Positions 10,265 through 28,383 of a DNA stretch of 64,000 nucleotides are shown here, piece after piece (the stretch's first letter is position 1; every line of letters starts with the position of its first letter). The stretch comes from Candidatus Binatia bacterium (GTDB lineage: Bacteria; Desulfobacterota; Binatia; UBA12015): positions 7,184 to 71,183 of the forward strand of contig JAIEPK010000479.1 in NCBI GenBank assembly GCA_019749875.1. Reading direction: 5' to 3'. Below the pieces are notes generated by a model, which did no database searches, was not told the origin of the DNA, and saw only the letters and a program-made list of their open reading frames with translations. Both the position numbers and the translations under genes were made by a program.

Positions 10265-11011
10265 CTAGCTCGGTGCGCGCCTGGCATGGGCGATCTCCCA
10301 CAGGACAACTTCTCGCGACGTGCGCTCCGTTACGACGCTCCAATCCGTCTGCGATTCAATCCGCCGCCAAGGAGCATCGTCGACAGATACTGCCGCGATC
10401 TGATGCTCTTCGACCACGCGCCTGTAAGCGTCACCATAAGCAAACCCTGGACCGATCGCCACGTTGGCGTCGACGAATTCCGCCAAGGTCGCGCACGCGC
10501 GCCTTCCGAACTTGAACACTCCGAGCACGCTACGGCACTCCATTGCGAGCGGCGTAGGAACGCTCCCGATGGGCACGACGCGCTGATCCACGACGACGAC
10601 ATCTGCGGACGTCGCCGGCCCTTCGCGCGGATCGAATAAGGCGGCACTCTCGTACTCAAATTCAACGAGAATCTTCACCAGTGGGATCGGGAAGAGGATG
10701 CTCGTATCGAGAACTACGATGTCGTCGCACAACTGCGCTCGACCCGCGTACAGGGAGTGCGCGCCGCCCCGCTCGTGATCCGGGTTCATCGCAAGATCGA
10801 TCTCCAGCCTCGGGTTGAAGCGCCGGATATCCGCAACGACCTCCTCCGCACCGCACCCGACCACGCACGTCGCGAACCGAATCCCCGCGTACTGAACGGA
10901 CGTCAGCAGCCTCTCCAGCAGCGTCCTGCCGCGCACCTTCAACAGGCATGATGGCGTGAATCCAGGCGGTTGATGCTGCCAACGGCCGTCAGCGAGGACG
11001 ATCGCCCTCAT
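10265..11011 (-). CDS. Nucleotidyltransferase family protein (NTP_transferase/MobA-like)
   Basis: N-terminal MRAIVLADGR...LL nucleotidyltransferase fold motif. The ATG overlaps the TGA of the upstream GT39 gene (ATGA). Confidence 0.65.
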   Translation of the reverse strand: MRAIVLADGRWQHQPPGFTPSCLLKVRGRTLLERLLTSVQYAGIRFATCVVGCGAEEVVADIRRFNPRLEIDLAMNPDHERGGAHSLYAGRAQLCDDIVVLDTSILFPIPLVKILVEFEYESAALFDPREGPATSADVVVVDQRVVPIGSVPTPLAMECRSVLGVFKFGRRACATLAEFVDANVAIGPGFAYGDAYRRVVEEHQIAAVSVDDAPWRRIESQTDWSVVTERTSREVVLWEIAHARRAPS

Positions 11012-12840
11012 GAGCAATCCCCCTTGGTCGGGATTGCTTCGCCCTTGGACCCGAACGATGGACGGGCGACTGCGGGATCGCCATTGCGTCCTCGAGGCGC
11101 TGACGGCAGCTCGCACGCGTCACCAGCCTCGCATCCAGTAGAGCCTTCCCTGGCTGGGTCGAAGTTGACGAACACGACGCGCTCTGCGTCCCGCAGCAGA
11201 ACTCGCGGCTCGAGATTCAAGAGGGCGCCGAGCTCCTTCTCGAACCTTCGACTGGTTGCGATGAACACCCGCTGGTCCGACCTCCAGGCGTCGGCGATGC
11301 GGGTGGGGTCGCACCAGAAGAACTGCCGTCGGTCCGCGGCGAACCTCTGACCGAACCCGAGTTCGCCGTAGGTCATGGCCTGCACAGCACGAACCTGCGA
11401 ATAGAACGGCAGACCGTGAAGGAGTCGCCGGTACGAGATCACGAGATCGCCCGGGCGATGGAGCGCCTGGATCGCCCGACCGACGTCGCGCGACGTCTTC
11501 ACGACGCCGCGCGCGCCAAGAGAAAGGAAGAGGAAGAGTGCGGTACATGCGGCGACGGTGCCGACACCACGAAGCGACGATGGCGCGAATGACGAATCTC
11601 GAAATCGCGACCATCGGACCAGAGCAGCCGACCCGACCACGCCCGGTCCGCCTGCAGCGAAAAGAAGCGTCGTCGCAACCGTGAGGACGTCGGTGCGGTC
11701 ACGGCCGAGCACGTCGCTCAGAGGCCCCGCGAAGCTCCACCCGACGAACCCCGCGACGGCCAGTACGACCGACGCTGCGACCAGGCCCACGACACTGCGA
11801 TGAGTGGCTGCCGCGACAGAGTCCGTGCGATCCACCAAGTCCAGGCAACCTGCCGACAGGAGAGCAAGAGACGGGAAGGCCGGCAGAATGTACGCTGGCA
11901 GCTTCGCCCGAGCTACGGAAAAGAATACCAGGACCGCGAGCGCCCAAAGGAGAAGGAAGCCACGATCTTCGGAACGCAGCTTACGATACGACGCACGAAT
12001 CCCACCTCGCCACAGCACACCGGGAACGAATACCGTCCAGGGAAGAGCGCCTGCGAGCAAGACCGGGACGTAAAAGAACGGGCCTTCGGGATGCCCGACC
12101 GAAGCGGTCGAGAACCGCTCGAAATGCTGCTTCACGAAGAAGTACTCGACGAACTCGGGGTTCACCCAGGAGACGGCGATGAACCACGGAACAGCGATGA
12201 GCGTGAACGCCATGATCGGCGTCGGCCGGAGAAGACGCCGCAGAGCAGCCCAATCGCGCATCCCGACGAGGAAAAGAAGCGCGACGCCCCCCGGGAGCAC
12301 CAGCGCCACGAGGCCCTTGGCCAGCACGCCAAGTGCAGCGAACACCGCCGCGAGCGTAGGCCAGAGCAGCCCGCGCGGGTGCCGCCGTGCCCCCCAAAGC
12401 GCCGCCAACGTGGCCGTCATGCATGCCGTGAGCAGCATGTCGGTGGTGAGCGCCTGCGAGAAGAGGAAGAACAAGGGGCTGGTCGCAAGCATGATCGCCG
12501 CCATCAGGCCTGCACGCGGACCGAACATCGAACGACCGAGAACGAATGTGATGCAGACCGTCACCACGCCGGCCGCCGCCGGCACAATACGAGCAACACC
12601 CTCGCTCTGCCCGAAGACCTGAAACAGGGCGGCCGTCGACCAGTAGAGCAGTGGCGGCTTGTCGAAGTACTTGACGTAATGCAGGGTTGGCGTCAACCAG
12701 TCGCCGGTGACCGCCATCTCCCGTGCGATCTCGGCGTATCGTCCTTCGTCCGGATCCTGGAGAGGAAATCCACCGATGCGTGCGAAATACAGACCGAGAA
12801 GGAGCAGAAACAGCAGGATGGGCAACGCACGTGCACGCAT
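11008..12840 (-). CDS. GT39 family glycosyltransferase (ArnT/PMT-like polyprenyl-phosphate-sugar dependent transferase)
   Basis: About 12 TM helices. Conserved N-terminal loop motif QDPDEGRYAEIAREM and a YFDKPPL motif typical of ArnT/PMT. Confidence 0.85.
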   Translation of the reverse strand: MRARALPILLFLLLLGLYFARIGGFPLQDPDEGRYAEIAREMAVTGDWLTPTLHYVKYFDKPPLLYWSTAALFQVFGQSEGVARIVPAAAGVVTVCITFVLGRSMFGPRAGLMAAIMLATSPLFFLFSQALTTDMLLTACMTATLAALWGARRHPRGLLWPTLAAVFAALGVLAKGLVALVLPGGVALLFLVGMRDWAALRRLLRPTPIMAFTLIAVPWFIAVSWVNPEFVEYFFVKQHFERFSTASVGHPEGPFFYVPVLLAGALPWTVFVPGVLWRGGIRASYRKLRSEDRGFLLLWALAVLVFFSVARAKLPAYILPAFPSLALLSAGCLDLVDRTDSVAAATHRSVVGLVAASVVLAVAGFVGWSFAGPLSDVLGRDRTDVLTVATTLLFAAGGPGVVGSAALVRWSRFRDSSFAPSSLRGVGTVAACTALFLFLSLGARGVVKTSRDVGRAIQALHRPGDLVISYRRLLHGLPFYSQVRAVQAMTYGELGFGQRFAADRRQFFWCDPTRIADAWRSDQRVFIATSRRFEKELGALLNLEPRVLLRDAERVVFVNFDPAREGSTGCEAGDACELPSAPRGRNGDPAVARPSFGSKGEAIPTKGDCS

Positions 12841-12847
12841 CGCGGAC

Positions 12848-13855
12848 CTACGAGCCGGCGACAGCGACAGGCTCGCCCACCGCCGACGACGTGGATTCGG
12901 AATCCCACGCGACCAGGTACGCAGGACGAGCCCTCACCCCTTCGAGCACTTGCCCCAGGTAGATTCCGAGAACGCCCAGAACGACGAGATGCCCGCCGGA
13001 AAACAGCGACACTGCGGAGATGACGAACAGACCGGAGCGCGGCAGCCAGCCATCGAGACCGCCTGCCAGAGCGTAGACACCCAACGCGGCGCCGAACAAG
13101 CACTCTACCACGCCAAGAACCGCGGGGACATGGAGCGGCCACTTCGCGCTGGACGTGACCCCGCGAAGGGCCAGCGCAGCAAGCTTCCCGTAGGTAAACT
13201 TCGATCGCCCAGCAAAGCGCGCGGGCCTCGCGTAAGCGACCGTGGCCTGCCGAAATCCCGCCCACGACACGAGGCCACGAAGATACTTTTCCGTTTCCGG
13301 AAGGGAATTCAGAACATCCAGGACACGCCGATCGAGTAGCCTGTAATCACCAACATCCACCGCAACAGGCTGGTCGGAGATACCGACAAGGACACGATAG
13401 TACAGCTTGATCAGGAACTTCCGCAGCCACCACTCTCCCTGACGCGCAACACGCCGCGCCGCCACGACATCGTAGCCTGCGTGCCACTCGGCGACGAGTT
13501 GCGGAATCAGCTCGGGCGGATCCTGCAGGTCCGCATCCATCGTTACGACCGCAGCGCCGTCCGCATGCTCGATACCGGCCATGATCGCCGCTTGGTGACC
13601 GAAGTTCCGGCTCAACGCCAGGATGCGAATACCGCCCTCCTTCGCGAGAGCACGAAGGAGCGCGAGCGACCGATCGGTAGATCCGTCATCGACGTAGATG
13701 ACTTCGTATGCGAGTCCCGTACGATCGAGTGTATCGATCAAGCGCCGATGCAGGATTTCGAGAGTCCCTTCCTCATTGTGAATGGGAAGTACCACAGAGA
13801 GATCCAACGGTTGGTCGCTCCGCAAGCTCCGTGCTGGCCGCCCCGGACTTCTCAT
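12848..13855 (-). CDS. GT2 family polyprenyl-phosphate glycosyltransferase (DPM1/ArnC-like)
   Basis: LSVVLPIHNEE, YEVIYVDDGSTD, VTMDADLQDPP motifs plus C-terminal TM helices. Confidence 0.85.
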   Translation of the reverse strand: MRSPGRPARSLRSDQPLDLSVVLPIHNEEGTLEILHRRLIDTLDRTGLAYEVIYVDDGSTDRSLALLRALAKEGGIRILALSRNFGHQAAIMAGIEHADGAAVVTMDADLQDPPELIPQLVAEWHAGYDVVAARRVARQGEWWLRKFLIKLYYRVLVGISDQPVAVDVGDYRLLDRRVLDVLNSLPETEKYLRGLVSWAGFRQATVAYARPARFAGRSKFTYGKLAALALRGVTSSAKWPLHVPAVLGVVECLFGAALGVYALAGGLDGWLPRSGLFVISAVSLFSGGHLVVLGVLGIYLGQVLEGVRARPAYLVAWDSESTSSAVGEPVAVAGS

Positions 13856-14649
13856 CGACGCTCCAGTTTCGATGCTCGGCTAGCCGTCGCGAGCGCAACG
13901 GCTTCGCGCAGCTCCAGGTCGGCGATGCGCGGGGCGATCGACTTCACCGCCATGGCGAGGTCTTCCGACGTGTCGATCTCCATCCACGGCTCTCCGGCCG
14001 CCGACAGAAAGCCGACGTCGTGGCTGTCGAAGACCGGTTGGTACGCAACCTCGTAGTCCGCACGGGAGCAACGGGCTCCGATTGCTGCAGAGACGCTGTC
14101 GCGGAGAGTTCGCGCCGCGCTCCGGTCGAACTTGGCCAGACCGAGCGATTCGCCGACCAGATCCCAGCTTCCCTGTTCGACCTCGCGCCCCACGCTCAAC
14201 ACCCGGTCACCGCGCGTCATCAGCATCATCTCCTCGCCTCTCGATGTCGACTGCGGATCGAGCAGGCACGCATTGGGGAGACTGCTCTGAACGAGCCGCG
14301 ACACGAGAAACAACGGGAGCAGGACATCCGCGTCGAGGATCAGGACGTCGTCATCGAGAAAGTCCCGCGCGGCTCCGAGGGAGAAGATGCTGCCAGAGCT
14401 GTAGCGGTCGTTGACCACCAAACGGATCGACAACCGAAAGCACACCGCATCGAGTGCTTGACGGATCTGCCCACGGAGGTGGCCGACGACGCAGACCAGG
14501 CGATCGACACCAGCCAGCTCGAGAGCCATCACCAACCGGATCAGCGTGCAACCACCCGCCAAGGGTAGGGGCAGCAGGCACTTCGGGTGCTCGGCGGTCA
14601 ATGGCCAGAGCCTGCGTCCGATTCCTGCAGTCAACAAGATCGCCGTCAT
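13852..14649 (-). CDS. Sugar-phosphate nucleotidyltransferase (NTP_transf_3-like)
   Basis: N-terminal MTAILLTAGIGRRLWPLT G-loop. The ATG overlaps the upstream cytochrome c TGA (ATGA) and its own stop overlaps the GT2 ATG. Confidence 0.7.
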   Translation of the reverse strand: MTAILLTAGIGRRLWPLTAEHPKCLLPLPLAGGCTLIRLVMALELAGVDRLVCVVGHLRGQIRQALDAVCFRLSIRLVVNDRYSSGSIFSLGAARDFLDDDVLILDADVLLPLFLVSRLVQSSLPNACLLDPQSTSRGEEMMLMTRGDRVLSVGREVEQGSWDLVGESLGLAKFDRSAARTLRDSVSAAIGARCSRADYEVAYQPVFDSHDVGFLSAAGEPWMEIDTSEDLAMAVKSIAPRIADLELREAVALATASRASKLERR

Positions 14650-15316: not shown

Positions 15317-16780
15317 CTAGACCTCGATTCCGTCGCGTCGCAGGTCCGCCGCGCCGGCGACACCGGCAACGGTTCCCTTCGGATGCTCGTACCAGCCGGG
15401 ATCCTCGTCGTAGGTGTCGAGCCGATCCCGCACCTTGAGAACGTTGACGAGGCCACCCATGGAGATGAATGCGAAGGGGCCCCGCCCCCCCATCATCGGG
15501 ATGCTGTTCGGCGGAACCGCCATGTGCATCGAATCCCCCATGCCGCTCGTTCCCATGGTCATGTACTGCGGCAGCAGCGGTGTGATCTTGCGGTCGAGGC
15601 CATCGGCGTCGACCCCGAGCATGTTCGGGAAGTCGTGCCCCATCTGATTCATGACGTGATGGGTCATGTGACAATGCAGGGCCCAGTCACCGGGGGCATC
15701 GGCGATGAACTCGATCTCGCGCGTCTGCCCCACTGCTACGAGCACGGTCGTCTCGGGCCATTGCGCCGACAACGGAATCTGCTCCCCGTCGGTCGCGGTC
15801 ACGCGGAAGTGGACGCCGTGCAGGTGCATCGGGTGATGGTCCATCGCACTCAGGTTCCCGAAGCGGATTCGTACCTTGTCGTTGGTCTTCACGATCAGCG
15901 GCCACGTTGCGGGAAAGACCTTGCCGTTCATGGTGAGCACGTTGAAGCCCTGGTCCTTGATGGGGTTCGGCCGCGAGGTACCGACGCGGACGAAGAACTC
16001 ACCGGTCAGGATCGAGAAATCGCGGTCGACGTGCTGCTCCGGGGCGGGATGCCGCGGATGGACGACCAGCATCCCGGTCAGCCCCATCGCCATCTGCGTC
16101 ATCTCGTCGTGATGCGAGTGGAACATGAACGTCCCGTGCTGGCGGAACGTCCACTCGTAGAGAAACGTCTCACCGGGAGCGATCAGCGGCTGATTGAGCC
16201 CGCCCACCCCGTCCATTCCGTTCGGGAGGTAGACGCCGTGCCAGTGCACGCTGGTCTCCGCCGGGAGACGGTTCGTCACGTAGATGCGGACGCGCTCGCC
16301 CTCGACCGCCTCGATCGTGAGGCCGGCGACCTGACCGTTGAACGCCCAGCACGTGGTCTTCAGCCCGGGTGCGAACTCGTGCTCGATCTCGCCGAGCACG
16401 AGATGGAAGACCTTCGCGCCGTCGACGATCTTGAATGGCAGTGTGGCGCCGTTCGGCACCACGACGGGTTGGTAGTCCTTGCCCGGCAAACCCGGCGGCA
16501 GCGGCGCGACGTCCAGAGGGCCGCCGCTGTAGCTCTTCTCCCACCAATCGAGGTTGGTCTGTTTGATCCCCCCACCGGCAGGCGCGGGCGGCGGGCTCGC
16601 CGCGTCGGCCGGCGCGGGCGGCGTACTCCCCGCGGCGCCGGGCGCGGACGGCGTACTTTCCGGGTCGGCGGGCGCCGCGGGCTCGGCCGCACCGGCCCGC
16701 GCCGCCATCACACCGACGAGCGAGCCTCCGACCGCCGCGGCGCCCGAGAGCAACACCGTTCGTCGCGTAGCTTTCTTCAT
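15317..16780 (-). CDS. Multicopper oxidase with Tat signal, Pro/Ala-rich linker and Met-rich segment
   Basis: RRTVLLSGAAAVG Tat signal. Copper-binding motifs HWHG, HSHHDEMTQMAMG, HPMHLHGVHF, HCHMTHHVMNQM. Met-rich MTMGTSGMGDSMHM segment. Confidence 0.85.
   Translation of the reverse strand: MKKATRRTVLLSGAAAVGGSLVGVMAARAGAAEPAAPADPESTPSAPGAAGSTPPAPADAASPPPAPAGGGIKQTNLDWWEKSYSGGPLDVAPLPPGLPGKDYQPVVVPNGATLPFKIVDGAKVFHLVLGEIEHEFAPGLKTTCWAFNGQVAGLTIEAVEGERVRIYVTNRLPAETSVHWHGVYLPNGMDGVGGLNQPLIAPGETFLYEWTFRQHGTFMFHSHHDEMTQMAMGLTGMLVVHPRHPAPEQHVDRDFSILTGEFFVRVGTSRPNPIKDQGFNVLTMNGKVFPATWPLIVKTNDKVRIRFGNLSAMDHHPMHLHGVHFRVTATDGEQIPLSAQWPETTVLVAVGQTREIEFIADAPGDWALHCHMTHHVMNQMGHDFPNMLGVDADGLDRKITPLLPQYMTMGTSGMGDSMHMAVPPNSIPMMGGRGPFAFISMGGLVNVLKVRDRLDTYDEDPGWYEHPKGTVAGVAGAADLRRDGIEV
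16565..16690 (-). repeat. Imperfect ~30-bp tandem repeats (3-4 units) inside the multicopper oxidase gene encoding a Pro/Ala-rich linker
   Basis: The units ggcgcgggcggcgggctcgccgcgtcggcc, ggcgcgggcggcgtactccccgcggcgccg and ggcgcggacggcgtactttccgggtcggcg encode PAPAD(A/S)xSxP repeats. Confidence 0.5.
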
Positions 16781-16783
16781 GAC

Positions 16784-18238
16784 TCAACGACCTCCACCTT
16801 GGATCGTGGGGAATGGGAACCGGCGCGCAGCCTCGAGCGGAGCCGTCGGCTGCACGAGCGCATCGGACGGAGGCACCCGTCCGGCGAGGATCATCGACAT
16901 GTCGGCACGCGCGAGCCAGTACTCGCGCAGGCTGTCGACGTAGCGCGCCGCCGACTCGATCTGCTGCTCCTTGGTCCGCAGCACGTCGATCGGGCTGATC
17001 TGCATCGCGTTGTATTGGAGCATCGCCTGCTGGACCACCTGCGCTCGGACCGGAAGCTGGACGTCGCGGTAGTACAGGGAGCGCTCCCCATATCCCTGGA
17101 CGCGGTCGCGCGCTGCTCTGGCCAACGCTCGAATTCGCACCGCCAGGGCGTATCGCGCATCCAAAGCGCGCTGCAGCTCTGCTTGCGCGCGCGCGGCGCG
17201 AGCCTGCCCCTGATCGAAGATCGGAATCGGGATCAGAAGAGACGGACCCGGCTCCCACTCGGGCGCGTCGCGATCTCCGCGCGCACCCACGAGGATTTCC
17301 GGAAAGAGGCCACTCGTGCGATCGAGGCCGAGCTGCTCGCCGAGAGCGACGATGCGGCTCGCGTCCGCCTTGAGATCGAGGCTGGATTCGATGGCACGAG
17401 CTTCGACGCGGTCCAGGTCCATCGGCTGCTCCGGAGGATCGGACATTCGCGAAGCCTTCAGCTTCCAGCCCGCCTCCGTTCCCCACAGACCGAGGATCGC
17501 GTTCAGCTGCTCGCGGCTCGTCCGCACGTCGACTTCCGCGAGTCGAACGTCGAGCTTCGATTCCTCTGCGAGCGCCTGCTCGCTGGAGAGGTCCAGCTGC
17601 GTGATGTTTCCTGCCTCGCGAAGGCGACGGGCGAAGTCGAACGCGGCCATGGTCGATGCGGCGATCTGCCGACGCATCTCGAGCATCTGCTCGTCGGCCT
17701 GGTGGCGGTAGAATGCCGTCTCGGCGCGCCATGCGAGGTCGAGGACCGCGCTCGCGACGCGCAGCTGCGTTTCTTCCAGAGCCGCAGCGGTGACCCGCAT
17801 GCGAAGCGGCGTGTAGAGAAAATCGATCACGTCCATGGCCACGCCGAGTGCGACGTCCACGCCGCCGCCTCCCACCGGCAACCCGACACCGGCGTCGAGG
17901 ACCGGGTTGTGCAGCAGGCTCGACTGCACGAGGTCTGCCTGGGCCACACCGAGATCCGCGTAGACGGCACGGAGATCGCGGCTGTTCATCAGCGAGATCT
18001 TGACCGCCCCCTCGGCATCGAGGCCGCCGTCGAGCAATGAGCGCACGGCATCCACCGTTGCCGGGTCGTCGCCGGCGCCGGGAGTCCATGAAACCTCCTG
18101 CGTCGTGCGCTCCTTCACGATCGACGCAACGGTGGGAAACCCGCCTTGTGGATCGACGGCAACGGCCGTGCATCCCCCGAGCGCCAAGGCGAGCAGAGCC
18201 AGGAGCCCGGCTAGAGACTCAGGTCGGCGGCGCATCAC
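16784..18238 (-). CDS. Outer membrane efflux lipoprotein, TolC/OprM/CusC family
   Basis: Lipobox LALGGC after the signal, then two repeated TolC-type coiled-coil halves. Confidence 0.8.
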   Translation of the reverse strand: MMRRRPESLAGLLALLALALGGCTAVAVDPQGGFPTVASIVKERTTQEVSWTPGAGDDPATVDAVRSLLDGGLDAEGAVKISLMNSRDLRAVYADLGVAQADLVQSSLLHNPVLDAGVGLPVGGGGVDVALGVAMDVIDFLYTPLRMRVTAAALEETQLRVASAVLDLAWRAETAFYRHQADEQMLEMRRQIAASTMAAFDFARRLREAGNITQLDLSSEQALAEESKLDVRLAEVDVRTSREQLNAILGLWGTEAGWKLKASRMSDPPEQPMDLDRVEARAIESSLDLKADASRIVALGEQLGLDRTSGLFPEILVGARGDRDAPEWEPGPSLLIPIPIFDQGQARAARAQAELQRALDARYALAVRIRALARAARDRVQGYGERSLYYRDVQLPVRAQVVQQAMLQYNAMQISPIDVLRTKEQQIESAARYVDSLREYWLARADMSMILAGRVPPSDALVQPTAPLEAARRFPFPTIQGGGR

Positions 18239-18552
18239 TGACCTCCATGCATGTGGTGCTCGTGACCCCCATGGCCTGACATCGCGTCGGCGGCGGAAGG
18301 GGTCGCGGCTTGAGTCGGCTGCGCTGACCCACGCTTGAGAATGTTTGACGATTCGAGCGATGGCGCGGCGACAGCCTCAGGGTTCGCCGGATTGGTCAGC
18401 GCAATCGGAGGCGGTTGATAAGCCGCGCATCCCGTTCCCAGGACTGAAACAGCCATCGCCATCAGAGCGAAGCTGGATCGCACACCATTCGTCGTCGACC
18501 ATCGGCCGATTCGTCGATGCGCGCGGACATTCCGCGCTGCGTTCGGGGCCAT
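18235..18552 (-). CDS. Small putative lipoprotein with C-terminal His/Met metal-binding motif (start uncertain)
   Basis: C-terminus ADAMSGHGGHEHHMHGGQ. Possible signal MAMAVSVLGTGC. The stop overlaps the downstream outer-membrane-factor ATG (ATGA). Which in-frame start is used is unclear. Confidence 0.4.
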   Translation of the reverse strand: MAPNAARNVRAHRRIGRWSTTNGVRSSFALMAMAVSVLGTGCAAYQPPPIALTNPANPEAVAAPSLESSNILKRGSAQPTQAATPSAADAMSGHGGHEHHMHGGQ

Positions 18553-18862
18553 CGTCAGCGAAATCCGCCACCATGGCATCTTGTCGCCCTCCACCGATTC
18601 AAAGATGAACATCCGCCAGGCGGAACAGCCTGACCCAATTTCAACAACGAGCTCCGCGCATGCTAGAGTGGACGACGACCCCGAGGGTCGATCGTCTCGC
18701 CCGGGCACCACGTGTACGAACGCGTGGGCGCGTCGACTGGAGGACGCACTGGCGAGCTCCGCGTTACAGGCGCAAGGCGCACCTCCGGGGACGGAAGTCT
18801 GCTTGCGCTCGACGCTCGCGCGGTCGTGGCGCGCGGTCACCTAGCCCAATGGGCGGGACCGC

Positions 18863-19312
18863 TCAGACGAGGATCGTGCGGAATGTGAGATGCGAGCGCA
18901 GGCCAGGAAACCGGCTACGCTGCCGACCTTCGTCACGTGCGCGGCCCGGAAGGGGATCGCCGGGCCCGCCGAACACTGTCAGGCCCGACGCCTTCACACG
19001 CAGCGGAAACGCGGGCCCAGAGGTCATCGTCGACGCAACGGTGGCCTTCAGAGAAGGGAGCGCGACGATCGCTGCCATAGGACCGCAGCAAGCAGGCGAC
19101 TGCTCGTTCTGCGGCTGGCGATCAGCTGCCGAAGAGCCGCCATGCTTCGGACATTCCGGCGCAGCGACCGTCCGGGTCCGATCGGGACCATGGTCGGCGA
19201 TCTGGCAAAGATTCCGAGAGTGTTGTGCCGCCGCGACGACGAGCGCCAAGGCCAGAACGCTCGCGGTCGGCATGAGAACGCGCCTGAGCGGTCCTGTCGC
19301 AAACATTTTCAT
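18863..19312 (-). CDS. Hypothetical secreted Cys-containing protein
   Basis: [29 protein letters not shown] signal-like start, ATG at 19310-19312. Divergent from the 19491 gene. Weak support. Confidence 0.3.
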
Positions 19313-19490
19313 CCAGGAGAGCCCTCTGCATAGCTCAATACGCGGCGCGCGTCCAACCGTAACACCAGAGCTCGTCGCCGGGCCGCCGATTGTGCGAGTG
19401 AGCAAACACGACGGGCCGTCGACCACCGCCTGCACATCGAGCGAAAGCCGAGACTCGCAACCCCACGCGCCGATCGAGTATGGTCTGCAC

Positions 19491-20777
19491 ATGGAAGAGG
19501 CCCAGTTCGTCACCCTCCTCGACCGGTGGAAGCAGGATGCCGGGGGCACCTACAGATCGTGGTTCCTGTGGGACGAGCGCCTCAAGAACTTCCGCTCCAT
19601 CCGTGCAGGGATCGCGGAGGTCGTGCGGGAGATCGAGGCAGGGACCTTCGGGAACCAGTACAAGGGCTCGTCACTGGAGACCATCGTCGGGGCAATCGCG
19701 GAGCAGCGACAGATCTTCAAGGGCGCCGACCACGCGTTTCTCTGGAAGCCGAAGCTTCGCATCCCCGACATCTACGAGAGCGTCGACAACCAGCGTGCCT
19801 TCGGCCGCTTCCTCGCCGCTTGCGCGTGCTGTGACGACGAGGCGGGCGTCGTGGGTGCAATCCGACGCCTGAGCGATTGCAGGATCAAGGGTCTCGGTCC
19901 GGCAGCGGCAAACCTGCTCTACTTCCTGCATCCGACCCTCGTGCCGCCCTTCAACACCGCGATCGTGAAGGGTTACAACGCCCTCACGGGAGCGCGCGTC
20001 AAGCTCGGAAGCTGGGACGAATATCTGGCCATGCGGGCCGGCGTTCTCCGTCTCAACGCGGAACATCGCAGGCTGCTCTCGAACGACCTGGGTGCCGTCG
20101 CTGGCTTTCTCTTCGACATCGGCACCGGGCGCTATGCGCTGCCGCCGAGAAGCAACGACGCAGCCGCGCTCGCTGCATGGAACGATGACCTGACCCGAGT
20201 GCGCGACGAGACGGCGGCAGATCGCAAGCGGCTGGAGCGGGAGCGCGAAGGCGACGCGACGCATACCCTGATCCAGGGCTGGCTGCGGGACCTCGGAACG
20301 GCGCTGGGCTTCGAAGTTCACATCGCCGTCAATGACCGGAGTCGAGAATACGCCGGCGGACGACTCGGTGACCGCTGCTGCGAGCTGCCGACGTCCCTTT
20401 CCGAACGGCCTGGCATCGATGCAATTCGCCTGATCGACGTCCTCTGGCTCCATACCGGCCCGGACAGCAAGGGCGAGCACAGCATCGCAGCCGCGTTCGA
20501 GGTCGAGCACACGACGTCGATCTATTCCGGCATCGTGCGGCTGCTCGATCTCGCCCTGGGTGCGCCGAGTGGATCCGCGACCGGTCTCTATTTGGTGGCG
20601 CCCGATGCACGTAGGGAAGACGTCTCCCTGCAGCTCTCGCGTCCCGCATTCACCCGTGTGCGGGACCTCCGAGTACGATTCCTGCCGTACAGCGCATTGC
20701 GGGAGAACCGGGATGCGATGGCGAGGTTCGGGAGTGGGCTGAAGGCGATCGAGGCGGTGGCGCATACGCTGACGTAG
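19491..20777 (+). CDS. Restriction-endonuclease-like (PD-(D/E)xK-type) hypothetical protein, solitary
   Basis: 428 aa from the ATG at 19491; the upstream part of the long ORF is Arg-rich junk. The C-terminal region has an IDVLWL ... AAFEVEHTT pattern resembling a D...ExE/K nuclease core, as in BamHI-type ExE variants. No methyltransferase neighbour. Confidence 0.55.
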
Positions 20778-20883
20778 ACCGCCGGCTCCAACTTCGACCG
20801 CAGCCCTCCAATCGGCAGGAGCTGCACCAAATCAACTTCGCGCACTCTCGAGGGATTGACACCTGAGATTCTCGAGTGGACGG

Positions 20884-22311
20884 ATGGAAACCATCATGCT
20901 GACCCGCCACGACCCGACGCCGATGTTCGCAGGAAACACCCTTCGCAGCCTTCCCGGTCGACGAAGCTCGGTGCACCTCGCAATCGCCACCCTGATTGCA
21001 GTCGGGTTCACGTCTTTCACCGGATGTGCACGACGCCCAGAGGTGAAGAGCTTCGAGATCATCGCGGCGCCGACGACCGTTCCGCTTTCGAGCGGCAGGA
21101 CGATTCAGGTGTGGGCCTACAATGGTCAGGTGCCCGGGCCTACACTGCGGATCCGCCTGGGCGACACGTTGCGCGTGACGTTCACGAACCGCCTGCCGCA
21201 GCCGACCACCATCCATTGGCACGGGGTGCGGGTACCCAACGCGATGGATGGCGTTCCGGGCGTCACGCAGCGGCCGGTCGAGCCCGGTCAGACCTTCGTC
21301 TACGAGTTCACGCCGAAGGACGCGGGCACGTTCTGGTTCCATCCGCACGTCCGTGCCAGTGAGCAGGTCGAGCGCGGTCTGTATGGCGTACTCATCGTCG
21401 ACGATCCCGAGCCACAGCCGTTCGCACGCGACGAGCTATGGGTGATCGACGACCTCCTGTTGGATCCGAGCGGCGAAATCGCACCCGAGTTCAACACGCG
21501 GCACGACCTCGCGCACGACGGGCGTTGGGGCAACTTCGTGGTCGTCAACGGCAGATCTCGCCCCGAGCTTCGTGCGGCGCCGGGAGAGCGGTTGCGTTTG
21601 CGACTCCTGAACGTGGCCAACGGCCGCATCTTTGTACCGGACTTCGGTGCTCTTCAACCGCAGATCATTGCGGTCGATGGCCTCTACGTGACCGCTCCGG
21701 TCGACGCTCGAGGCTTCGAGCTGGCACCCGGAAATCGGGTCGACCTCGATCTCGTCGTACCTGCCGCGCTCGCCGGTAGCCGAGTCTCGGTAGTTGATCG
21801 CTTCACGCGTCAAGCGATCGGCCTGGCCGACATCCTCGTGTCGCCAGATGCGGCGACGGATCCTCCGCGCTTCTCCATCCCTGTGGGTTCGCGCATGCCC
21901 GATGCCCCGTCCACCGGGTCCGCCCCGCCGTCGCTCGACCTTCGCTTGAACGCGGAGCCCGGAGGTCCGTTCGGGATCGCCTGGACGATCAACGGCACTG
22001 CGATGAACCCGCTCGACCACGCATCGGGCAGTGAGCACTATGCGCTTCCGTTGAACGAGCCGAGTCGGGTTCGATTCGTCAACGAGTCCTATCGGCTCCA
22101 TCCGATGCATCTTCACGGAATGTTCTTCCGGGTGGTGTCACGAAACGGGCGTCCGATCGACGAGCCGTTTACGCGAGACACGGTCCTCGTTCATCCGAAG
22201 GAGACGGTCGAAGTCGTGACGCTTCCAACCGAGCCGGGTCTGTGGATGGCTCACTGCCACGTCCTGGAGCACGCGGAAGCCGGCATGATGACGTTACTTG
22301 ATGTTCACTGA
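20884..22311 (+). CDS. Multicopper oxidase (lipoprotein-like signal)
   Basis: Copper-binding motifs HWHGVRVPNAMDG, HPHV, HPMHLHG, HCHVLEHAEAGMM. N-terminal TM/lipobox-like FTGC. Confidence 0.8.
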   Translation: METIMLTRHDPTPMFAGNTLRSLPGRRSSVHLAIATLIAVGFTSFTGCARRPEVKSFEIIAAPTTVPLSSGRTIQVWAYNGQVPGPTLRIRLGDTLRVTFTNRLPQPTTIHWHGVRVPNAMDGVPGVTQRPVEPGQTFVYEFTPKDAGTFWFHPHVRASEQVERGLYGVLIVDDPEPQPFARDELWVIDDLLLDPSGEIAPEFNTRHDLAHDGRWGNFVVVNGRSRPELRAAPGERLRLRLLNVANGRIFVPDFGALQPQIIAVDGLYVTAPVDARGFELAPGNRVDLDLVVPAALAGSRVSVVDRFTRQAIGLADILVSPDAATDPPRFSIPVGSRMPDAPSTGSAPPSLDLRLNAEPGGPFGIAWTINGTAMNPLDHASGSEHYALPLNEPSRVRFVNESYRLHPMHLHGMFFRVVSRNGRPIDEPFTRDTVLVHPKETVEVVTLPTEPGLWMAHCHVLEHAEAGMMTLLDVH

Positions 22312-23081: not shown

Positions 23082-24152
23082 TCAGCTCATCCGCTGCGCT
23101 TGAAGGCCGTAGATGTAGGCGAGCACCTCGGCGACGGCCCGATACAAGCCGTACGGGATTTCGCTGCCTACCTTGACGGTACGGTAGAGCGCGCGCGCGA
23201 GGGTGCGACGCTCGACGATCGGCACGCCGCCCGCGCGCGCCAGCTGCTTGATGCGCTCGGCGACCTCGTCGACGCCCTTCGCGACCACGCACGGTGCACC
23301 CTGCTCGTCGCCGCGATAGCGCAACGCCACAGCGAAATGCGTCGGGTTGGTGATCACCACGTCGGCGGTCGCGACCTCGCTCAGCATGCGGTTGTTGTTA
23401 AAGTCGCGGTATGCGCGCTTCATCCGCTGGCGGAGCTTGGGATCGCCCTCGGATTGGCGCATCTCGTCCTTGATCTCCTGCCGCGACATGCGGAGGCTCT
23501 GCTGGTGCGTGCGCCGTTGCCAGATGTAGTCGAACGCCGCCAACACAGCGAGCGTCGAGCCCACCCATAGCATCATTCGCACCAGCTCGGCCCCGCCTAC
23601 GGCGAGAATTTCGCTCGCCGACAATAACCCGACAGACCGTAGGCGATCTAGCGTCGACAACACCACCTTCCACGCCACCCACGACACCAGTACAATCCTG
23701 ACGATATTCTTGATTAGCTCGACGAAGCCGCGCAGCGAGAAGATGCGCTTCAGGCCGGTGCTCGGCGAGATGCGCGATCCCTTCGGGAGGAGCAGCTGCG
23801 GATAGAGCCCGACGCCGACCTGAGCGAGGTTGCTTGCGACGCCGGCGAGCATCATCGCGAGGATCACCGGCAGGGTCGCGGAGACGATCACGGCGCCCGC
23901 GTCGTAGAATGCCTGTCCCACCTGCGCCGGTGTCAGGTCAGCACGCGCGACCTGCATCAGGCCGTGCCGCATCGCCTCGCGCAGATCGCGCGACGTCGTG
24001 CCACCCCACTGAGACATCGCGATCACCGCGGTAAGCAGCACCGTCGCCGATGTGACATCCGACGAACGCGCTACCTGGCCCTCCTCGCGAGCTTTCTCGG
24101 CGCGCCGTGGTGTAGGCTCTTCGGTTTTGTCGGAGAGATCTTCTTCCGCCAT
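23082..24152 (-). CDS. flhB: Flagellar/T3SS export apparatus switch protein FlhB (YscU/EscU family)
   Basis: N-terminal MAEEDLSDKTEEPTPRRAEKAREEGQVARS, four TM helices, NPTH autocleavage motif in VVITNPTHFAVAL. ATG at 24150-24152. No other flagellar genes in the window. Confidence 0.85.
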   Translation of the reverse strand: MAEEDLSDKTEEPTPRRAEKAREEGQVARSSDVTSATVLLTAVIAMSQWGGTTSRDLREAMRHGLMQVARADLTPAQVGQAFYDAGAVIVSATLPVILAMMLAGVASNLAQVGVGLYPQLLLPKGSRISPSTGLKRIFSLRGFVELIKNIVRIVLVSWVAWKVVLSTLDRLRSVGLLSASEILAVGGAELVRMMLWVGSTLAVLAAFDYIWQRRTHQQSLRMSRQEIKDEMRQSEGDPKLRQRMKRAYRDFNNNRMLSEVATADVVITNPTHFAVALRYRGDEQGAPCVVAKGVDEVAERIKQLARAGGVPIVERRTLARALYRTVKVGSEIPYGLYRAVAEVLAYIYGLQAQRMS

Positions 24153-24904
24153 CGCTTCAGACCCGTGCGTCGAGCAGGTCGTCAAACCATGCGATGCTTC
24201 CGAACGCCGGCGCGAACGCGCGCACCGCGGACAGCGCGGCACGCGCCACGAGAGTCAGTACGGCGGCTGAGACACTCGGGTTGCCGTTCATATTATTGCG
24301 TTCGCGCTCATGTTTCAGCTGCAGCCGGACCTTGGACCTTGACATTTTGCTGCGGTCACTCGTCGGCGAGACGCGCGTGCAGCGCGTCGCGATCCGCCGT
24401 CGAGTACGCGGCCAGGGTCGCGACGCCGAGCTCGCCACACGCGCGGCGCACCTGGTTGCTGCGCTGCTCCACGTCCTCACCACAATCACCGCAGCTGCTG
24501 CGAACAGAGCAGCGTCCGAAACCAACCGCGGTATTTGGGTGAGCCTGTCGTGGCGTTCTCCTCCCGCGCAGAACGGGCCTCACGTCTTGAAGACGCACGC
24601 CTGGGAAGGTCGTTACACCTTCCGCGTTCGCGTGCGACCGTCGGTCGGGCGAGCGCACGAGCTCTGCCAGAACCGAAGTGCGGGAGGTGCGAGGAACGCT
24701 TGCGGAGCCGCATGGCGCCGAGCCTTGAGCTTGCGCATCGGGTCATTCCGTTCCGAGACCGGGCGAGCGCTCATCTGCGGATTCCGAGCGATCCCGAACA
24801 CACGTTCCGATTGAAGCCGAACACTGTCTGAGAGAGGCGGTCCGGTTCGCGTCGACGCGTTGACGGCGCTGGGTAGCGAAGGGCCCCATCGCACCGAGGA
24901 GGTG

Positions 24905-25930
24905 ACGATGGCGGCGGAGAGGCTACCCTTTCGGAAAACCAGGGAGAGCCTGCGGCTGACGCTGCAGGCCGGGCTCAGCCAGCGAGCGATCGCGCGCAGC
25001 GTGAAGGTCTCGCAGAGCACGGTGAACGACTACGTGGGGCGCGCGGTGGTGGCGAAGCTGACGTGGCCGCTGCCGCCGGAGCTCGACGACGAGGCGCTCG
25101 ATCGGCTGCTGTTCGCTGCCGAGCACCACCAGCCGAAGGCGCACCGGCCGGAGCTGGACTGGGCTCACCAGGCGGCACTGCCGCGCTCGGGTCTTGGCAA
25201 GGCGGTCGGCTACGCGCTCACGCTGTGGGACGGCCTCGTGCGCTTCGTCGACGACGCGCGGATACCCATCGACACCAACCTCGTCGAGCGCGGCATGCGG
25301 CCGCTCGCCGTCGGGCGCAAGAACCACTACGACTCGAAGTCCGAGCGCGGGACGCGCGTCGCGGCAATCTTCTACACGCTGATCGAAGCGGCGAGCTCGC
25401 TGGCGCCGAGCCGGCCGGCCATGTCGCCGAGGCGACGCGGCGCGCGATCGACAACGCCGGTACCGTCACGCTGCCGCGCGATCTCCCGCCGGCCTGATCC
25501 GTTCGTCGCTCGCATTCGCGGCGAACATCGCGCAGATCACGACGCCGCGCGAGACGGGGTCCGGCGAGCACTTACCGTAAGGACTCGCCGGACCCCATCT
25601 GGTCGAGCGCTGGCCTGACGTTAGAGCGCGATGACGAGAGATGCAGGAGAACTTCGGCGAAGCGAGATGGTGCTCGGCCGCCAGACGCGCGGCGCGCGCA
25701 TTCCCGAGGATCTCCGCGTGGAGGTCGATCGCGCACCGCGTGGCGTCGGCGACATGGCCGGCGGGCTCGCCGCTGGCGCACTTCGCCGACTCGATCAGCC
25801 GCGAGCTTCTCAAGATGTGCAGCAGACGATCGCGCAGCAAAGCGCGGAGATCCTCGCCTTCCGGAACATCCTCGAGCAGCACGGCGCGGACTGATCTGCA
25901 GTGGAATCGGTAGGGCGCGAGCGGTTGCAT
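24905..25930. mobile_element. Degenerate IS remnant mosaic: IS21-like IstA N-terminal HTH fragment fused to IS66-family transposase C-terminal fragment, with internal inverted duplication
   Basis: ORF 24860-25618 encodes an IstA-like N-terminus (SQRAIARSVKVSQSTVNDYV...LTWPLPPELDDEALDRLLF). It is followed by an IS66 TnpC-like LGKAVGYALTLWDGLVRFVDDARIPIDTNLVERGMRPLAVGRKNHYDSKSERG...IFYTLIEAA. No intact transposase is present. Confidence 0.5.
25400..25786. repeat. ~53-bp near-perfect inverted repeat arms (25400-25452 and 25734-25786) centred on a 13-bp-stem hairpin (approx 25556-25600)
   Basis: Arm 1 is ctggcgccgagccggccggccatgtcgccgaggcgacgcggcgcgcgatcgac. Arm 2, read as its reverse complement, matches with ~5 mismatches. 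Central hairpin is ggggtccggcgag(N15)ctcgccggacccc. Confidence 0.6.

Positions 25931-25968: not shown

Positions 25969-28383
<2,415 letters not shown>

What the first reader, a model, noticed from the sequence alone, without database searches (positions are those of the whole stretch)
19491..20777. Solitary restriction-endonuclease-like protein inserted between two copper-resistance modules
This 428-aa plus-strand protein interrupts an otherwise minus-strand copper locus. It has no adjacent methyltransferase or specificity gene.

Its C-terminal ~130 aa carry a PD-(D/E)xK-like pattern: hydrophobic-D (IDVLWL), then ~20 aa later AAFEVEHTT (an ExE variant as in BamHI-like enzymes). This is preceded by [14 protein letters not shown].

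The N-terminal ~280 aa, with [30 protein letters not shown], are not a domain I can name.

It could be a Type IV/Mrr-like modification-dependent nuclease or a novel defence effector.
Basis: partly seen in the sequence, partly recalled or inferred. Interest (0 to 1): 0.6.

Follow-up and report, generated by a model that had tools for sequence, protein, structure and literature searches.

The report
CopL: copper-island nuclease, glycosylase-like domain
The gene is an orthologue of copL, a named but never characterised member of bacterial copper-resistance gene clusters, and it encodes a stand-alone DNA-cutting enzyme made of a restriction-enzyme nuclease domain joined to a domain shaped like a DNA-repair glycosylase.

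Summary

**What it is**
- It is not a foreign insertion. It is 62% identical, end to end, to CopL (Rmet_6120) of the 21-gene cop cluster on Cupriavidus metallidurans pMOL30.
- C-terminal part (aa ~255-428): the NmeDI_C restriction-nuclease module. D316, E337 and E339 are invariant in 82/82 orthologues.

**Context**
- No DNA methyltransferase family recurs among 291 neighbouring genes.
- There are no phage homologues and almost no defence-gene neighbours.
- 31 of 42 fully flanked species loci, and 10 of 11 annotated plasmid contexts across about seven phyla, have copper or heavy-metal genes nearby.

**Function**
- Identity and architecture: about 0.9 confidence.
- Function is unproven. My best guess (~0.4) is an endonuclease directed by a damaged or flipped base, serving copper-stressed cells.
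- A Type IV restriction role is a weaker rival.
- Four cysteines conserved only in the CopL clade suggest a metal site.

The gene is a new member of a named but uncharacterised family.

The parts
19491..20777 (+). copL orthologue, 428 aa plus stop codon
   Evidence: Translation is intact. 62% identical over 421 aa to pMOL30 CopL/Rmet_6120. More than 7,000 homologues.
19491..20135 (+). N-terminal all-helical domain (aa 1-215) with an HhH-GPD glycosylase-like fold
19743..19778 (+). Invariant loop W85[11 protein letters not shown]96, basic and acidic, modelled with low confidence
   Evidence: Invariant in 70 diverse sequences; W85, K86, R90, D93 and E96 are 82/82 among orthologues. pLDDT is below 50 at residues 87-91. 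A role in DNA contact or as a wedge is inferred only.
19821..19832 (+). C111-x-C113-C114 motif, specific to the CopL clade
   Evidence: C111 82/82, C113 81/82, C114 78/82. Absent from the Firmicutes clade. The literature calls CopL a 'cys-rich cytosolic protein' (PMC7563307).
19881..19961 (+). Helix-hairpin-helix (R131[13 protein letters not shown]) plus a Pro-rich loop ending in N155-T156, where HhH-GPD enzymes carry the catalytic Asp
   Evidence: G134, G136, P137, N141, P153, N155 and T156 are invariant or nearly so. hhalign pairs this segment with the EndoIII HhH (residues 113-126), but not significantly (E 0.5).
20157..20303 (+). Long connecting helix (aa 223-271). Its C-terminal end carries invariant H258 and Q262 and belongs to the NmeDI_C homology region
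   Evidence: Secondary structure of the model. The BLASTP alignment to the NmeDI-type enzyme starts at aa 219. Linker identity is only 48%.
20304..20774 (+). PD-(D/E)xK nuclease domain of NmeDI_C type (aa 272-428)
20376..20378 (+). C296, the fourth conserved cysteine of the CopL clade
   Evidence: Conserved in 80/82 orthologues. Replaced by Ser in the Firmicutes clade.
20436..20438 (+). D316, putative catalytic Asp at the start of strand beta2 (IDVLW)
   Evidence: Invariant in 70/70 and 82/82 sequences. Aligns to LIDCIW of the NmeDI-type enzyme.
20499..20510 (+). E337-V-E339-H340, putative catalytic ExE at the end of strand beta3
   Evidence: E337 and E339 are invariant. Position 340 is His in the CopL clade and in the NmeDI-type enzyme, and Lys in the Firmicutes clade.
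15317..18238 (-). Multicopper oxidase (15317-16780) and TolC/OEP outer-membrane factor (16784-18238), upstream and divergent from copL
   Evidence: Pfam Cu-oxidase_3/_2 and OEP. The same arrangement occurs on the Variovorax WDL1 plasmid and in L001.
18235..19312 (-). Two small exported ORFs between the TolC gene and copL. One is lipoprotein-like with a C-terminal His/Met-rich tail
   Evidence: Translations and gene calls in L001. No Pfam hit. Two small hypotheticals sit at the same place in Variovorax.
20884..22311 (+). Multicopper oxidase, 107 nt downstream of copL on the same strand
   Evidence: Pfam Cu-oxidase_3/_2. No plus-strand terminator-like site was found in 19200-21000.
25969..28383 (-). 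CopF-type P1B copper ATPase with YHS and HMBD N-terminal domains
   Evidence: 57% identical to pMOL30 CopF. Pfam E1-E2_ATPase, YHS and HMBD.

Best explanation
The ORF is copL, a conserved accessory gene of copper-resistance islands.

**Shown.** It encodes a cytoplasmic two-domain DNA enzyme.
- The N-terminal domain has the HhH-GPD glycosylase fold, closest to Ogg2 8-oxoguanine glycosylases. It keeps an invariant helix-hairpin-helix but lacks the canonical catalytic Asp and Lys.
- The C-terminal domain is the NmeDI-type PD-(D/E)xK cleavage module with an intact, invariant D316...E337-x-E339 site.
- The gene has no cognate methyltransferase and no fixed partner gene.

**Inferred mechanism.**
- The glycosylase-like domain binds DNA through its HhH and probes or flips a damaged or otherwise aberrant base without excising it.
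- This positions the attached nuclease to incise the DNA nearby. The logic resembles nucleotide-incision repair, or NucS/EndoMS and Vsr.
- The target would be a lesion rather than a sequence, so the host needs no protective methylation.
- Copper islands would carry the gene because copper and redox stress raise the load of such lesions.
- In the CopL clade, four conserved cysteines (C111, C113, C114, C296) may add a metal- or redox-sensitive element.

**Confidence.** Identity and architecture about 0.9; the mechanism as stated about 0.35-0.4. The confidence value given for this explanation refers to the whole statement, mechanism included.
For: **Identity**
- 62% identity over the full length to pMOL30 CopL.
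- The pMOL30 gene spans the published copL antisense TSS at 181,548. It starts 14 bp downstream of the published copL TSS assigned to Rmet_6120.
- Window CopF is 57% identical to pMOL30 CopF, a similar level of divergence.

**Nuclease domain**
- Family and fold evidence.
- Catalytic residues are invariant in 70 diverse and 82 orthologous sequences, and all 82 copies are intact.

**Glycosylase-like domain**
- The HhH residues are invariant.
- It is the most conserved part of the protein: 75% against 63% for the nuclease domain. It is 43-56% identical between Proteobacteria-type and Firmicutes members. That rate is typical of housekeeping repair enzymes, not arms-race genes.

**Solitary**
- No DNA methyltransferase family recurs among 291 neighbours.

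**Copper link**
- 45 of 80 species loci have a core copper/metal gene within 10 kb, and 31 of 42 loci with full flanks do.
- 50 of 80 loci have a homologue of another pMOL30 cop protein.
- 10 of 11 annotated plasmid contexts are metal-related, spanning Bacillota, Deinococcota, Actinomycetota, Cyanobacteriota, Bacteroidota and Alpha-/Betaproteobacteria.

**Expression**
- In CH34, copL has its own promoter with the putative CopR-type motif (PMC7563307).
- It is among the cop genes listed for the response to a metal mix (PMC11647585).
Against: - There is no biochemical or genetic evidence for any activity. I found no copL mutant phenotype in the literature.
- copL was one of only two cop1 genes not induced by acute copper, and a copper-induced antisense RNA lies inside it. 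Both sit awkwardly with a protein needed during copper stress.
- From my own background knowledge, not tested here: copper overload in E. coli has been reported not to raise oxidative DNA damage.
- Chromosomal copies in Lentilactobacillus, Paenibacillus and Bifidobacterium lie in non-metal contexts. The core function is therefore not copper-specific.
- The enrichment of copper genes was not compared with a matched random-locus control.
Confidence: 0.4

Rival explanations
1. A solitary modification-dependent (Type IV-like) restriction nuclease. The glycosylase-like domain reads a modified base in incoming phage or plasmid DNA, and the NmeDI_C domain cuts. The gene travels on the same mobile elements that carry copper islands.
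For: - It is a solitary nuclease without a methyltransferase.
- It has the modular reader-plus-cleavage architecture typical of Type IV enzymes.
- It is frequent on plasmids: 184 records, 85 of them conjugative.
- In Niallia it lies beside AbiH, ParE/RelB and a TnsD fragment.
Against: - There are no homologues in 50,697 phage records.
- PADLOC finds almost no defence genes among 150 adjacent genes, whereas copper families dominate.
- The putative reader domain is the most conserved part, the opposite of what arms-race diversification would give.
- The association is specifically with copper genes, not with cargo in general.
Confidence: 0.2
2. A metal- or redox-responsive DNA-binding protein or nuclease. 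The four conserved cysteines of the CopL clade bind Cu(I), Zn or an Fe-S cluster. This switches DNA binding or cleavage, giving a regulatory or signalling role within the cop regulon.
For: - C111, C113, C114 and C296 are conserved in 78-82 of 82 orthologues and absent from the Firmicutes clade.
- The literature labels CopL a 'cys-rich cytosolic protein'.
- The gene often sits where a regulator would, upstream of HMA and P1B ATPase genes on the same strand: 12 of the 19 ATPase genes within 3.5 kb.
- Background knowledge: HhH-GPD enzymes such as EndoIII and MutY carry a 4-Cys Fe-S cluster.
Against: - Enterococcus and Listeria plasmid copies lack these cysteines yet still sit in copper clusters.
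- The invariant catalytic triad argues for an enzyme, not a pure regulator.
- No shared upstream operator motif was found.
- Whether the cysteines lie close together in 3D could not be checked.
Confidence: 0.15
3. A selfish or maintenance nuclease of the mobile elements that carry metal islands, for example post-segregational killing, island or plasmid stabilisation, or homing-type spread. It would have no role in copper physiology.
For: - It has no fixed neighbour or orientation: 135 and 158 Pfam families among 150 and 141 neighbours.
- Transposases and integrases are often nearby.
- Some plasmids carry several copies.
- Identity is 62-72% across many phyla, which suggests horizontal spread.
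Against: - There is no antitoxin-like or immunity partner.
- The chromosomal position is stable and identical across Lentilactobacillus hilgardii strains.
- The deep Firmicutes/Proteobacteria split with all motifs retained indicates long-term purifying selection for a cellular function.
Confidence: 0.1
4. An orphan classical Type II restriction endonuclease of the NmeDI family that has lost its methyltransferase, as the database label 'type II restriction endonuclease' implies.
For: - Annotation by NCBI and JGI.
- PADLOC REase_II hit.
- PF27126 NmeDI_C tag.
Against: - Only the cleavage module is shared. The NmeDI N-terminal half (profile positions 1-175) is replaced by an unrelated domain.
- No methyltransferase accompanies it at any locus examined.
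- An active sequence-specific enzyme without protection would be lethal. Yet 82 of 82 copies are intact with perfect catalytic residues.
Confidence: 0.03

Closest known systems
CopL (Rmet_6120) of the cop1 cluster copVTMKNSRABCDIJGFLQHEW on Cupriavidus metallidurans CH34 plasmid pMOL30
   Same: - Full-length orthologue: 62% identity over 421 aa.
- Same Cys motif and the same catalytic and HhH residues.
- Same kind of locus, with a CopF-type ATPase and multicopper oxidases nearby.
- GT39 and GT2 glycosyltransferase homologues lie next to both clusters.
   Different: - Gene order differs. In pMOL30, copL is divergent from copO-copF. In the window it is divergent from two small ORFs, TolC and a multicopper oxidase, and is followed by another multicopper oxidase.
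- CopL itself has no demonstrated function. The literature only calls it a 'cys-rich cytosolic protein' or 'type II enzyme restriction'.
R.NmeDI, a Type II restriction endonuclease of Neisseria meningitidis (Pfam PF27126 NmeDI_C; PADLOC REase_II PDLC03534)
   Same: - The C-terminal cleavage module is homologous: E=8.5e-10 to the profile, and 30% identity to a full-length family member.
- H258/Q262, NDR, IDxxW, ExEH(S/T)T, VAPD and RP motifs all align.
   Different: - NmeDI is 351 aa, recognises RCCGGY, cuts on both sides of the site, and overlaps its cognate methyltransferase gene (PMC2095814).
- CopL has a different N-terminal domain and no methyltransferase.
- CopL is far more conserved across phyla.
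HhH-GPD DNA glycosylases, especially Ogg2-type 8-oxoguanine glycosylase Tm1821 (PDB 3n0u), and also EndoIII, MutY, AlkA, Mag1 and OGG1
- A helix-hairpin-helix with the h-G-h-G-x-x-x-A-N signature, followed by a Pro-rich loop.
   Different: - No Pfam HhH-GPD hit.
- No acidic residue at the catalytic Asp position (N155/T156).
- Ala in place of the lyase Lys.
- No C-terminal 4-Cys Fe-S loop of the EndoIII/MutY type.
- It is fused to a nuclease.
Lesion- or mismatch-directed PD-(D/E)xK repair nucleases (NucS/EndoMS, Vsr, MutH) and modular Type IIS/Type IV restriction enzymes (FokI, R.BspD6I, MspJI-type)
   Same: - A separate recognition domain coupled to a restriction-fold cleavage domain.
- NucS and Vsr likewise work without a methyltransferase.
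   Different: - The recognition domain is of a different fold from all of these.
- No substrate is known for CopL.

Membership tests
CopL (pMOL30 cop-cluster gene family) | Full-length sequence orthology to Rmet_6120 | tested here: met
   62% identity and 76% positives over 421 aa with no large gaps. The pMOL30 gene is identified as copL from published TSS coordinates.
CopL (pMOL30 cop-cluster gene family) | Location within a copper-resistance gene cluster | tested here: met
   The window has multicopper oxidases, TolC, cytochrome c and a CopF-type ATPase within 8 kb.
CopL (pMOL30 cop-cluster gene family) | Cys-rich cytosolic protein | tested here: met
   C111-x-C113-C114 and C296 are present in the window protein and conserved in 78-82 of 82 orthologues. 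No signal peptide or transmembrane segment is evident in the sequence or model.
CopL (pMOL30 cop-cluster gene family) | Metal-responsive expression | not testable with these tools
   Only literature data for CH34 are available: not induced by acute Cu, listed with the metal-mix response, Cu-induced antisense RNA.
NmeDI-type Type II restriction endonuclease | NmeDI_C cleavage domain | tested here: met
   PADLOC PDLC03534 E=8.5e-10 on aa 256-407. PF27126 tag on close homologues. Motif-by-motif alignment to a full-length member.
NmeDI-type Type II restriction endonuclease | NmeDI N-terminal (recognition) half | tested here: not met
   Only profile positions 176-324 of 351 are matched. The N-terminal 250 aa alone give no PADLOC hit. 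BLASTP finds no N-terminal similarity.
NmeDI-type Type II restriction endonuclease | Adjacent cognate DNA methyltransferase | tested here: not met
   None in the window. No DNA methyltransferase family is among the 25 most frequent families of 291 neighbours. None in the annotated plasmid contexts; the methyltransferases listed there are annotated as class I SAM/UbiE-type (pMOL30), TIGR04325 family (Variovorax) or untyped (Burkholderia, Streptomyces), and none lies next to the gene.
NmeDI-type Type II restriction endonuclease | Sequence-specific cleavage (RCCGGY, both sides) | not testable with these tools
   Requires enzymology.
PD-(D/E)xK nuclease superfamily | Restriction-endonuclease-like alpha/beta core fold | tested here: met
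PD-(D/E)xK nuclease superfamily | Catalytic D...(D/E)xK motif on strands beta2 and beta3 | tested here: met
   The D316...E337-V-E339 variant (ExE, followed by H or K at 340) is invariant in 70/70 and 82/82 sequences. Its placement at strands 317-320 and 332-338 matches the model. Geometry was not measured because no coordinates were available.
HhH-GPD DNA glycosylase superfamily | Two-lobed helical fold | tested here: met
HhH-GPD DNA glycosylase superfamily | Helix-hairpin-helix motif | tested here: met
   [10 protein letters not shown], with G134, G136, P137 and N141 invariant. hhalign pairs it with the EndoIII HhH, but at E 0.5, which is not significant.
HhH-GPD DNA glycosylase superfamily | Catalytic Asp about 20 residues after the hairpin (the 'GPD' Asp) | tested here: not met
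   In the hhalign register, EndoIII D138 falls at N155/T156, both invariant. The CopL clade has no Asp or Glu in 147-160. The register rests on a non-significant alignment and was not confirmed by superposition.
HhH-GPD DNA glycosylase superfamily | Profile-level sequence membership (Pfam HhH-GPD) | tested here: not met
   No Pfam or NCBIfam hit at E<=1. The PDB profile search gave only spurious hits.
Type IV (modification-dependent) restriction enzymes | Solitary nuclease with a separate reader domain and no methyltransferase | tested here: met
   Architecture and lack of a methyltransferase.
Type IV (modification-dependent) restriction enzymes | Recognised modified-base reader domain or match to a defence-system model | tested here: not met
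Type IV (modification-dependent) restriction enzymes | Defence-island or phage-associated context | tested here: not met
   Very few PADLOC hits among 150 adjacent genes. No phage homologue. Only the Niallia locus looks defence-like.
Type IV (modification-dependent) restriction enzymes | Cleavage dependent on DNA modification | not testable with these tools
   Requires enzymology or restriction assays.

The most novel reading that the evidence does not exclude
CopL would define a previously unrecognised class of DNA endonuclease. In it, a catalytically disarmed HhH-GPD (Ogg2-like) domain acts as the target reader for a restriction-type cleavage module. In the copper-island clade, a four-cysteine site would couple the enzyme to intracellular copper or redox state. 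That would give a direct molecular link between metal stress and DNA processing (repair incision or programmed cleavage), spread by horizontal transfer across at least seven phyla.
Probability: 0.15. Interest if true: 0.75.

Novelty: new member of a known kind. Interest (0 to 1): 0.5.

Why it matters
copL has been listed in copper-resistance clusters since the pMOL30 cop cluster was described, yet I could find no published function.

**What this analysis adds**
- It gives copL a concrete, testable biochemical identity: a glycosylase-fold DNA reader fused to an NmeDI-type nuclease.
- The family is widespread.
- Its association with copper and heavy-metal genes recurs across distant phyla.

**If the protein acts on DNA during metal stress**
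- It would add a DNA-level component to copper resistance, which is otherwise explained by efflux, oxidation and sequestration.
- It would be relevant to plasmids that co-select metal and antibiotic resistance.

**For annotation**
- The database label 'type II restriction endonuclease' is misleading for this family.
- The gene should not be counted as an R-M system or defence gene without evidence.

Tried and rejected
- **Local Pfam and NCBIfam scans of the protein:** no hit at E<=1. PF27126 is evidently newer than the local copy.
- **PDB sequence searches:** single sequence and profile gave only helical-composition matches to gp41 and coronavirus spike HR1, rejected as spurious.
- **PHROGs:** nothing.
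- **Copper-regulator operators:** the single TACANNTGTA in each of the Enterococcus and Listeria loci is at chance level and not in the promoter.
- **Shared upstream motifs:** a k-mer search over 78 upstream regions found nothing above the shuffled controls. No sigma-70-like promoter in the window.
- **Conserved partner gene:** rejected. There are 135 and 158 different Pfam families among the first and second neighbours.
- **copL-copO (DUF2933) pairing:** seen in pMOL30, Enterococcus, Listeria and Niallia. tblastn could not detect DUF2933 in the 80 loci because the proteins are too short, so this is left open.
- **GT39/GtrA/GT2 glycosylation trio as a recurrent neighbour:** not found in the 80 loci.
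- **hhalign of the family profile against E. coli EndoIII:** only the 14-residue HhH aligned, at E 0.5. I use it as a register hint, not as evidence of homology.
- **N-terminal domain in other architectures:** the exhaustive search found only 575 representative clusters. The listed hits are ~420-aa proteins or fragments.
- **Original Monchy et al. 2006 paper:** not held in the library.
- **Matched random-locus control:** not run for the copper enrichment. The chance expectation of a few percent rests on general knowledge of gene copy numbers.
Full report
**1. The observation**

The open frame extends upstream to 18660. Homologues are 420-430 aa and align from residues 1-9, and a 99%-identical 428-aa protein is called with the same start on an independent assembly that has the same neighbours. 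So the coordinates are right. GC content is about 65% and unremarkable across the region.

**2. The family**

The protein has more than 7,000 relatives in the word-indexed database. The top 120 are 68-99% identical and come from Planctomycetota, Betaproteobacteria, Nitrospira, Myxococcota, Gemmatimonadota and others. They are often labelled 'type II restriction endonuclease' and are tagged with Pfam PF27126, which names NmeDI_C.

A second clade is 37-47% identical and covers Lactobacillales, Bacillales and Bifidobacterium.

184 plasmids carry the gene. No phage does.

**3. The C-terminal domain**

PADLOC's REase_II model PDLC03534 is 351 positions long, the same length as R.NmeDI. It matches aa 256-407 at E=8.5e-10, but only through its positions 176-324.

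A 353-aa Enterobacter plasmid protein matches that model end to end (E=4e-123). It aligns to the window protein over aa 219-405 at 30% identity, with these motifs in register:

| Window protein | NmeDI-type enzyme |
|---|---|
| THTLIQ | RHAQIQ |
| NDR | NDR |
| LIDVLW | LIDCIW |
| FEVEHTT | MEIEHST |
| VAPD | VAPD |
| RP.F | RP.F |

D316, E337 and E339 are invariant in 70 diverse sequences and in 82 orthologues, all of which are intact.

**4. The N-terminal domain**

Sequence libraries do not recognise it.

The sequence shows a textbook helix-hairpin-helix ([12 protein letters not shown]) with G134, G136, P137 and N141 invariant, followed by a proline-rich loop. A profile alignment to E. coli EndoIII pairs exactly this segment with the EndoIII HhH, though without significance (E 0.5).

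In that register the lyase Lys120 corresponds to Ala138. The catalytic Asp138 falls at the invariant N155/T156. The CopL clade has no acidic residue in 147-160.

So the fold and the DNA-binding motif are those of a glycosylase, but the canonical catalytic residues are missing. This is also the slowest-evolving part of the protein: median 75% identity, against 63% for the nuclease domain and 48% for the linker.

An exhaustive search of 1.84 billion representatives finds the domain in only 575 clusters. The listed hits are CopL-length proteins or fragments.

**5. Genomic context**

In the window the gene is divergent from two small exported ORFs, a TolC-type gene and a multicopper oxidase. A second multicopper oxidase follows 107 nt downstream on the same strand. 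A CopF-type P1B ATPase lies 5 kb further on.

Annotated plasmid contexts in distant hosts show the same theme:
- **E. faecium:** P-type ATPases, CopY, DUF2933, Lgt
- **Listeria:** CopY, multicopper oxidase, DUF2933, YdhK
- **Deinococcus:** between two P1B ATPases
- **Burkholderia:** an HMA protein adjacent
- **Hymenobacter:** DUF305 and DUF4396
- **Leptolyngbya:** ATPase immediately upstream
- **Streptomyces:** DUF305 twice and a CopY-like regulator
- **Variovorax:** the same block as the window
- **Sphingobium:** a four-helix-bundle copper protein and copCD
- **Pseudarthrobacter:** the only context that is not obviously metal-related

Numbers from the 80 species loci:
- 29 have a P1B ATPase and 29 a multicopper oxidase within 10 kb. 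45 have at least one core copper/metal gene.
- Among the 42 loci with at least 8 kb on both sides, the figure is 31, or 36 when RND, OEP and CDF genes are counted.
- 50 of 80 carry a homologue of some pMOL30 cop protein other than CopL.
- Gene density does not fall off with distance, and there is no fixed neighbour. The link is therefore at the level of the island, not of an operon.
- From general knowledge of copy numbers (a few such genes per genome), chance would give a few percent at most. I did not run a matched control.

Chromosomal copies in Lentilactobacillus, Paenibacillus and Bifidobacterium are in ordinary contexts. The Niallia copy is in a mobile or defence-like patch next to a DUF2933 gene.

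No DNA methyltransferase family recurs among 291 neighbours. Defence-model hits among adjacent genes are rare.

**6. It is copL**

pMOL30 carries a 421-aa 'hypothetical protein' at 180,704-181,969, divergent from DUF2933 (copO) and the copF ATPase.

It spans the published antisense TSS 'in copL' at 181,548 (PMC7563307). It begins 14 bp downstream of the published TSS assigned to copL/Rmet_6120 (PMC9045368).

The window protein is 62% identical to it over the full length. That is comparable with 57% for the two CopF proteins.

The literature I could reach says only the following:
- It is a 'cys-rich cytosolic protein'.
- It was not induced by acute copper.
- Its promoter carries the putative CopR-type motif.
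- It contains a copper-induced antisense RNA.
- It is among the cop genes listed for the response to a metal mix (PMC11647585).
- It is glossed as 'type II enzyme restriction' in a genome paper (PMC12029693).

I found no mutant or biochemical data.

**7. Clade-specific feature**

Four cysteines are conserved in the CopL clade: C111 82/82, C113 81/82, C114 78/82 and C296 80/82. They are absent from the Firmicutes clade.

Position 340, next to the catalytic ExE, is His in the CopL clade and in the NmeDI-type enzyme, and Lys in the Firmicutes clade. I could not test whether the cysteines come together in space.

**8. How it most likely works**

*Shown:* a solitary cytoplasmic protein with a glycosylase-fold DNA-binding domain and an intact restriction-type nuclease. 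It is under strong purifying selection, is horizontally spread, and is enriched in copper islands.

*Inferred:* the glycosylase-like domain supplies target recognition by probing or flipping an aberrant base, and the nuclease then incises nearby. That would explain why no methyltransferase is needed and why the reader domain is so conserved. Copper islands would carry it as a DNA-protecting accessory. I put this at about 0.35-0.4.

Evidence against it: the weak copper induction and the antisense RNA in CH34; the non-metal contexts in Firmicutes; the missing catalytic residues; and the lack of any experiment.

Rivals:
- a Type IV-like restriction enzyme (0.2)
- a cysteine-based metal or redox switch with a regulatory role (0.15)
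- a mobile-element maintenance nuclease (0.1)
- an orphan classical Type II enzyme (0.03)

**9. Comparison and novelty**

The gene is a member of the CopL family. All testable criteria for that are met.

It is not a member of the NmeDI restriction-modification family in the full sense. It shares only the cleavage domain; the recognition half and the methyltransferase were tested and are absent.

It has the HhH-GPD fold but fails the catalytic-residue and profile criteria.

The window's gene is therefore a new member of a known, named but functionally uncharacterised kind. As far as my searches go, the domain assignment and the cross-phylum copper association are not in the literature I could access. 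That literature was limited to open-access papers.

Interest is moderate. It turns an orphan cop gene into a testable enzyme and corrects a misleading annotation. Nothing here yet shows a new mechanism.

Noticed in passing
window 18235-18582(-) and 18863-19312(-): Two small ORFs with no Pfam hit lie between the TolC gene and copL. One is lipoprotein-like and ends in a His/Met-rich tail (MSGHGGHEHHMHGGQ), typical of periplasmic copper binders. The other has a signal-peptide-like N-terminus and several Cys. Two small hypotheticals occupy the same position on the Variovorax WDL1 plasmid (L102 5338-6188).
   Followed up: partly
window 11008-14649(-); L097 142-3247; L092 6237-7638: GT39/PMT-type and GT2 glycosyltransferases (plus a nucleotidyl transferase) sit beside the window's copper genes. 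They are 35% and 41% identical to the GT39 and GT2 next to the pMOL30 cop cluster. In L. hilgardii, GT2 and GtrA lie immediately upstream of the CopL homologue. The trio was not found in the 80 species loci.
   Followed up: yes
window 23082-24242(-) and 24860-25618(+); L103 5626-6078: A lone FlhB-family export gene and an IS66-family transposase fragment sit between the multicopper oxidase and the CopF ATPase. The IS66 fragment suggests a mosaic, mobile-element-shaped island. A lone 'FliE' annotation also sits near copL on a Sphingobium plasmid.
   Followed up: no
L097 10132-10404; L004 11617-12023; L005 9843-10249; L098 10404-10607: A small DUF2933 gene (copO in pMOL30) lies within about 0.2-2.5 kb of the CopL homologue in four very distant hosts: Cupriavidus, Enterococcus, Listeria and Niallia. 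In Niallia no other copper gene is nearby. It is too short for tblastn to trace in the 80 loci.
   Followed up: partly
window 19821-19832 and 20376-20378 (aa 111-114 and 296): Four cysteines are conserved in 78-82 of 82 CopL-clade orthologues but absent from the Firmicutes clade. This may be a metal or Fe-S site bridging the two domains. Their proximity in 3D was not checked.
   Followed up: partly
window ~5845-6741(-), 34795-34911(-), 46802-47140(-): There are further copper-type features elsewhere in the window. These are a third multicopper-oxidase-like gene, a short HMA-like match to the CopF N-terminus, and a cytochrome c similar to CopJ/CopT. The metal region may extend well beyond the finding.
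   Followed up: no
pMOL30 (NC_007971.2) 180,704-181,969: According to PMC7563307, a copper-induced antisense transcript of about 500-700 nt starts inside copL at 181,548, while copL mRNA itself is not induced by acute copper. Antisense control is common for potentially toxic genes such as nucleases.
   Followed up: no
plasmid hits (Methylocystis rosea, Ralstonia, Sphingobium cloacae, Gluconobacter): Some plasmids carry two or three copies of the gene (column 'places_in_record').
   Followed up: no
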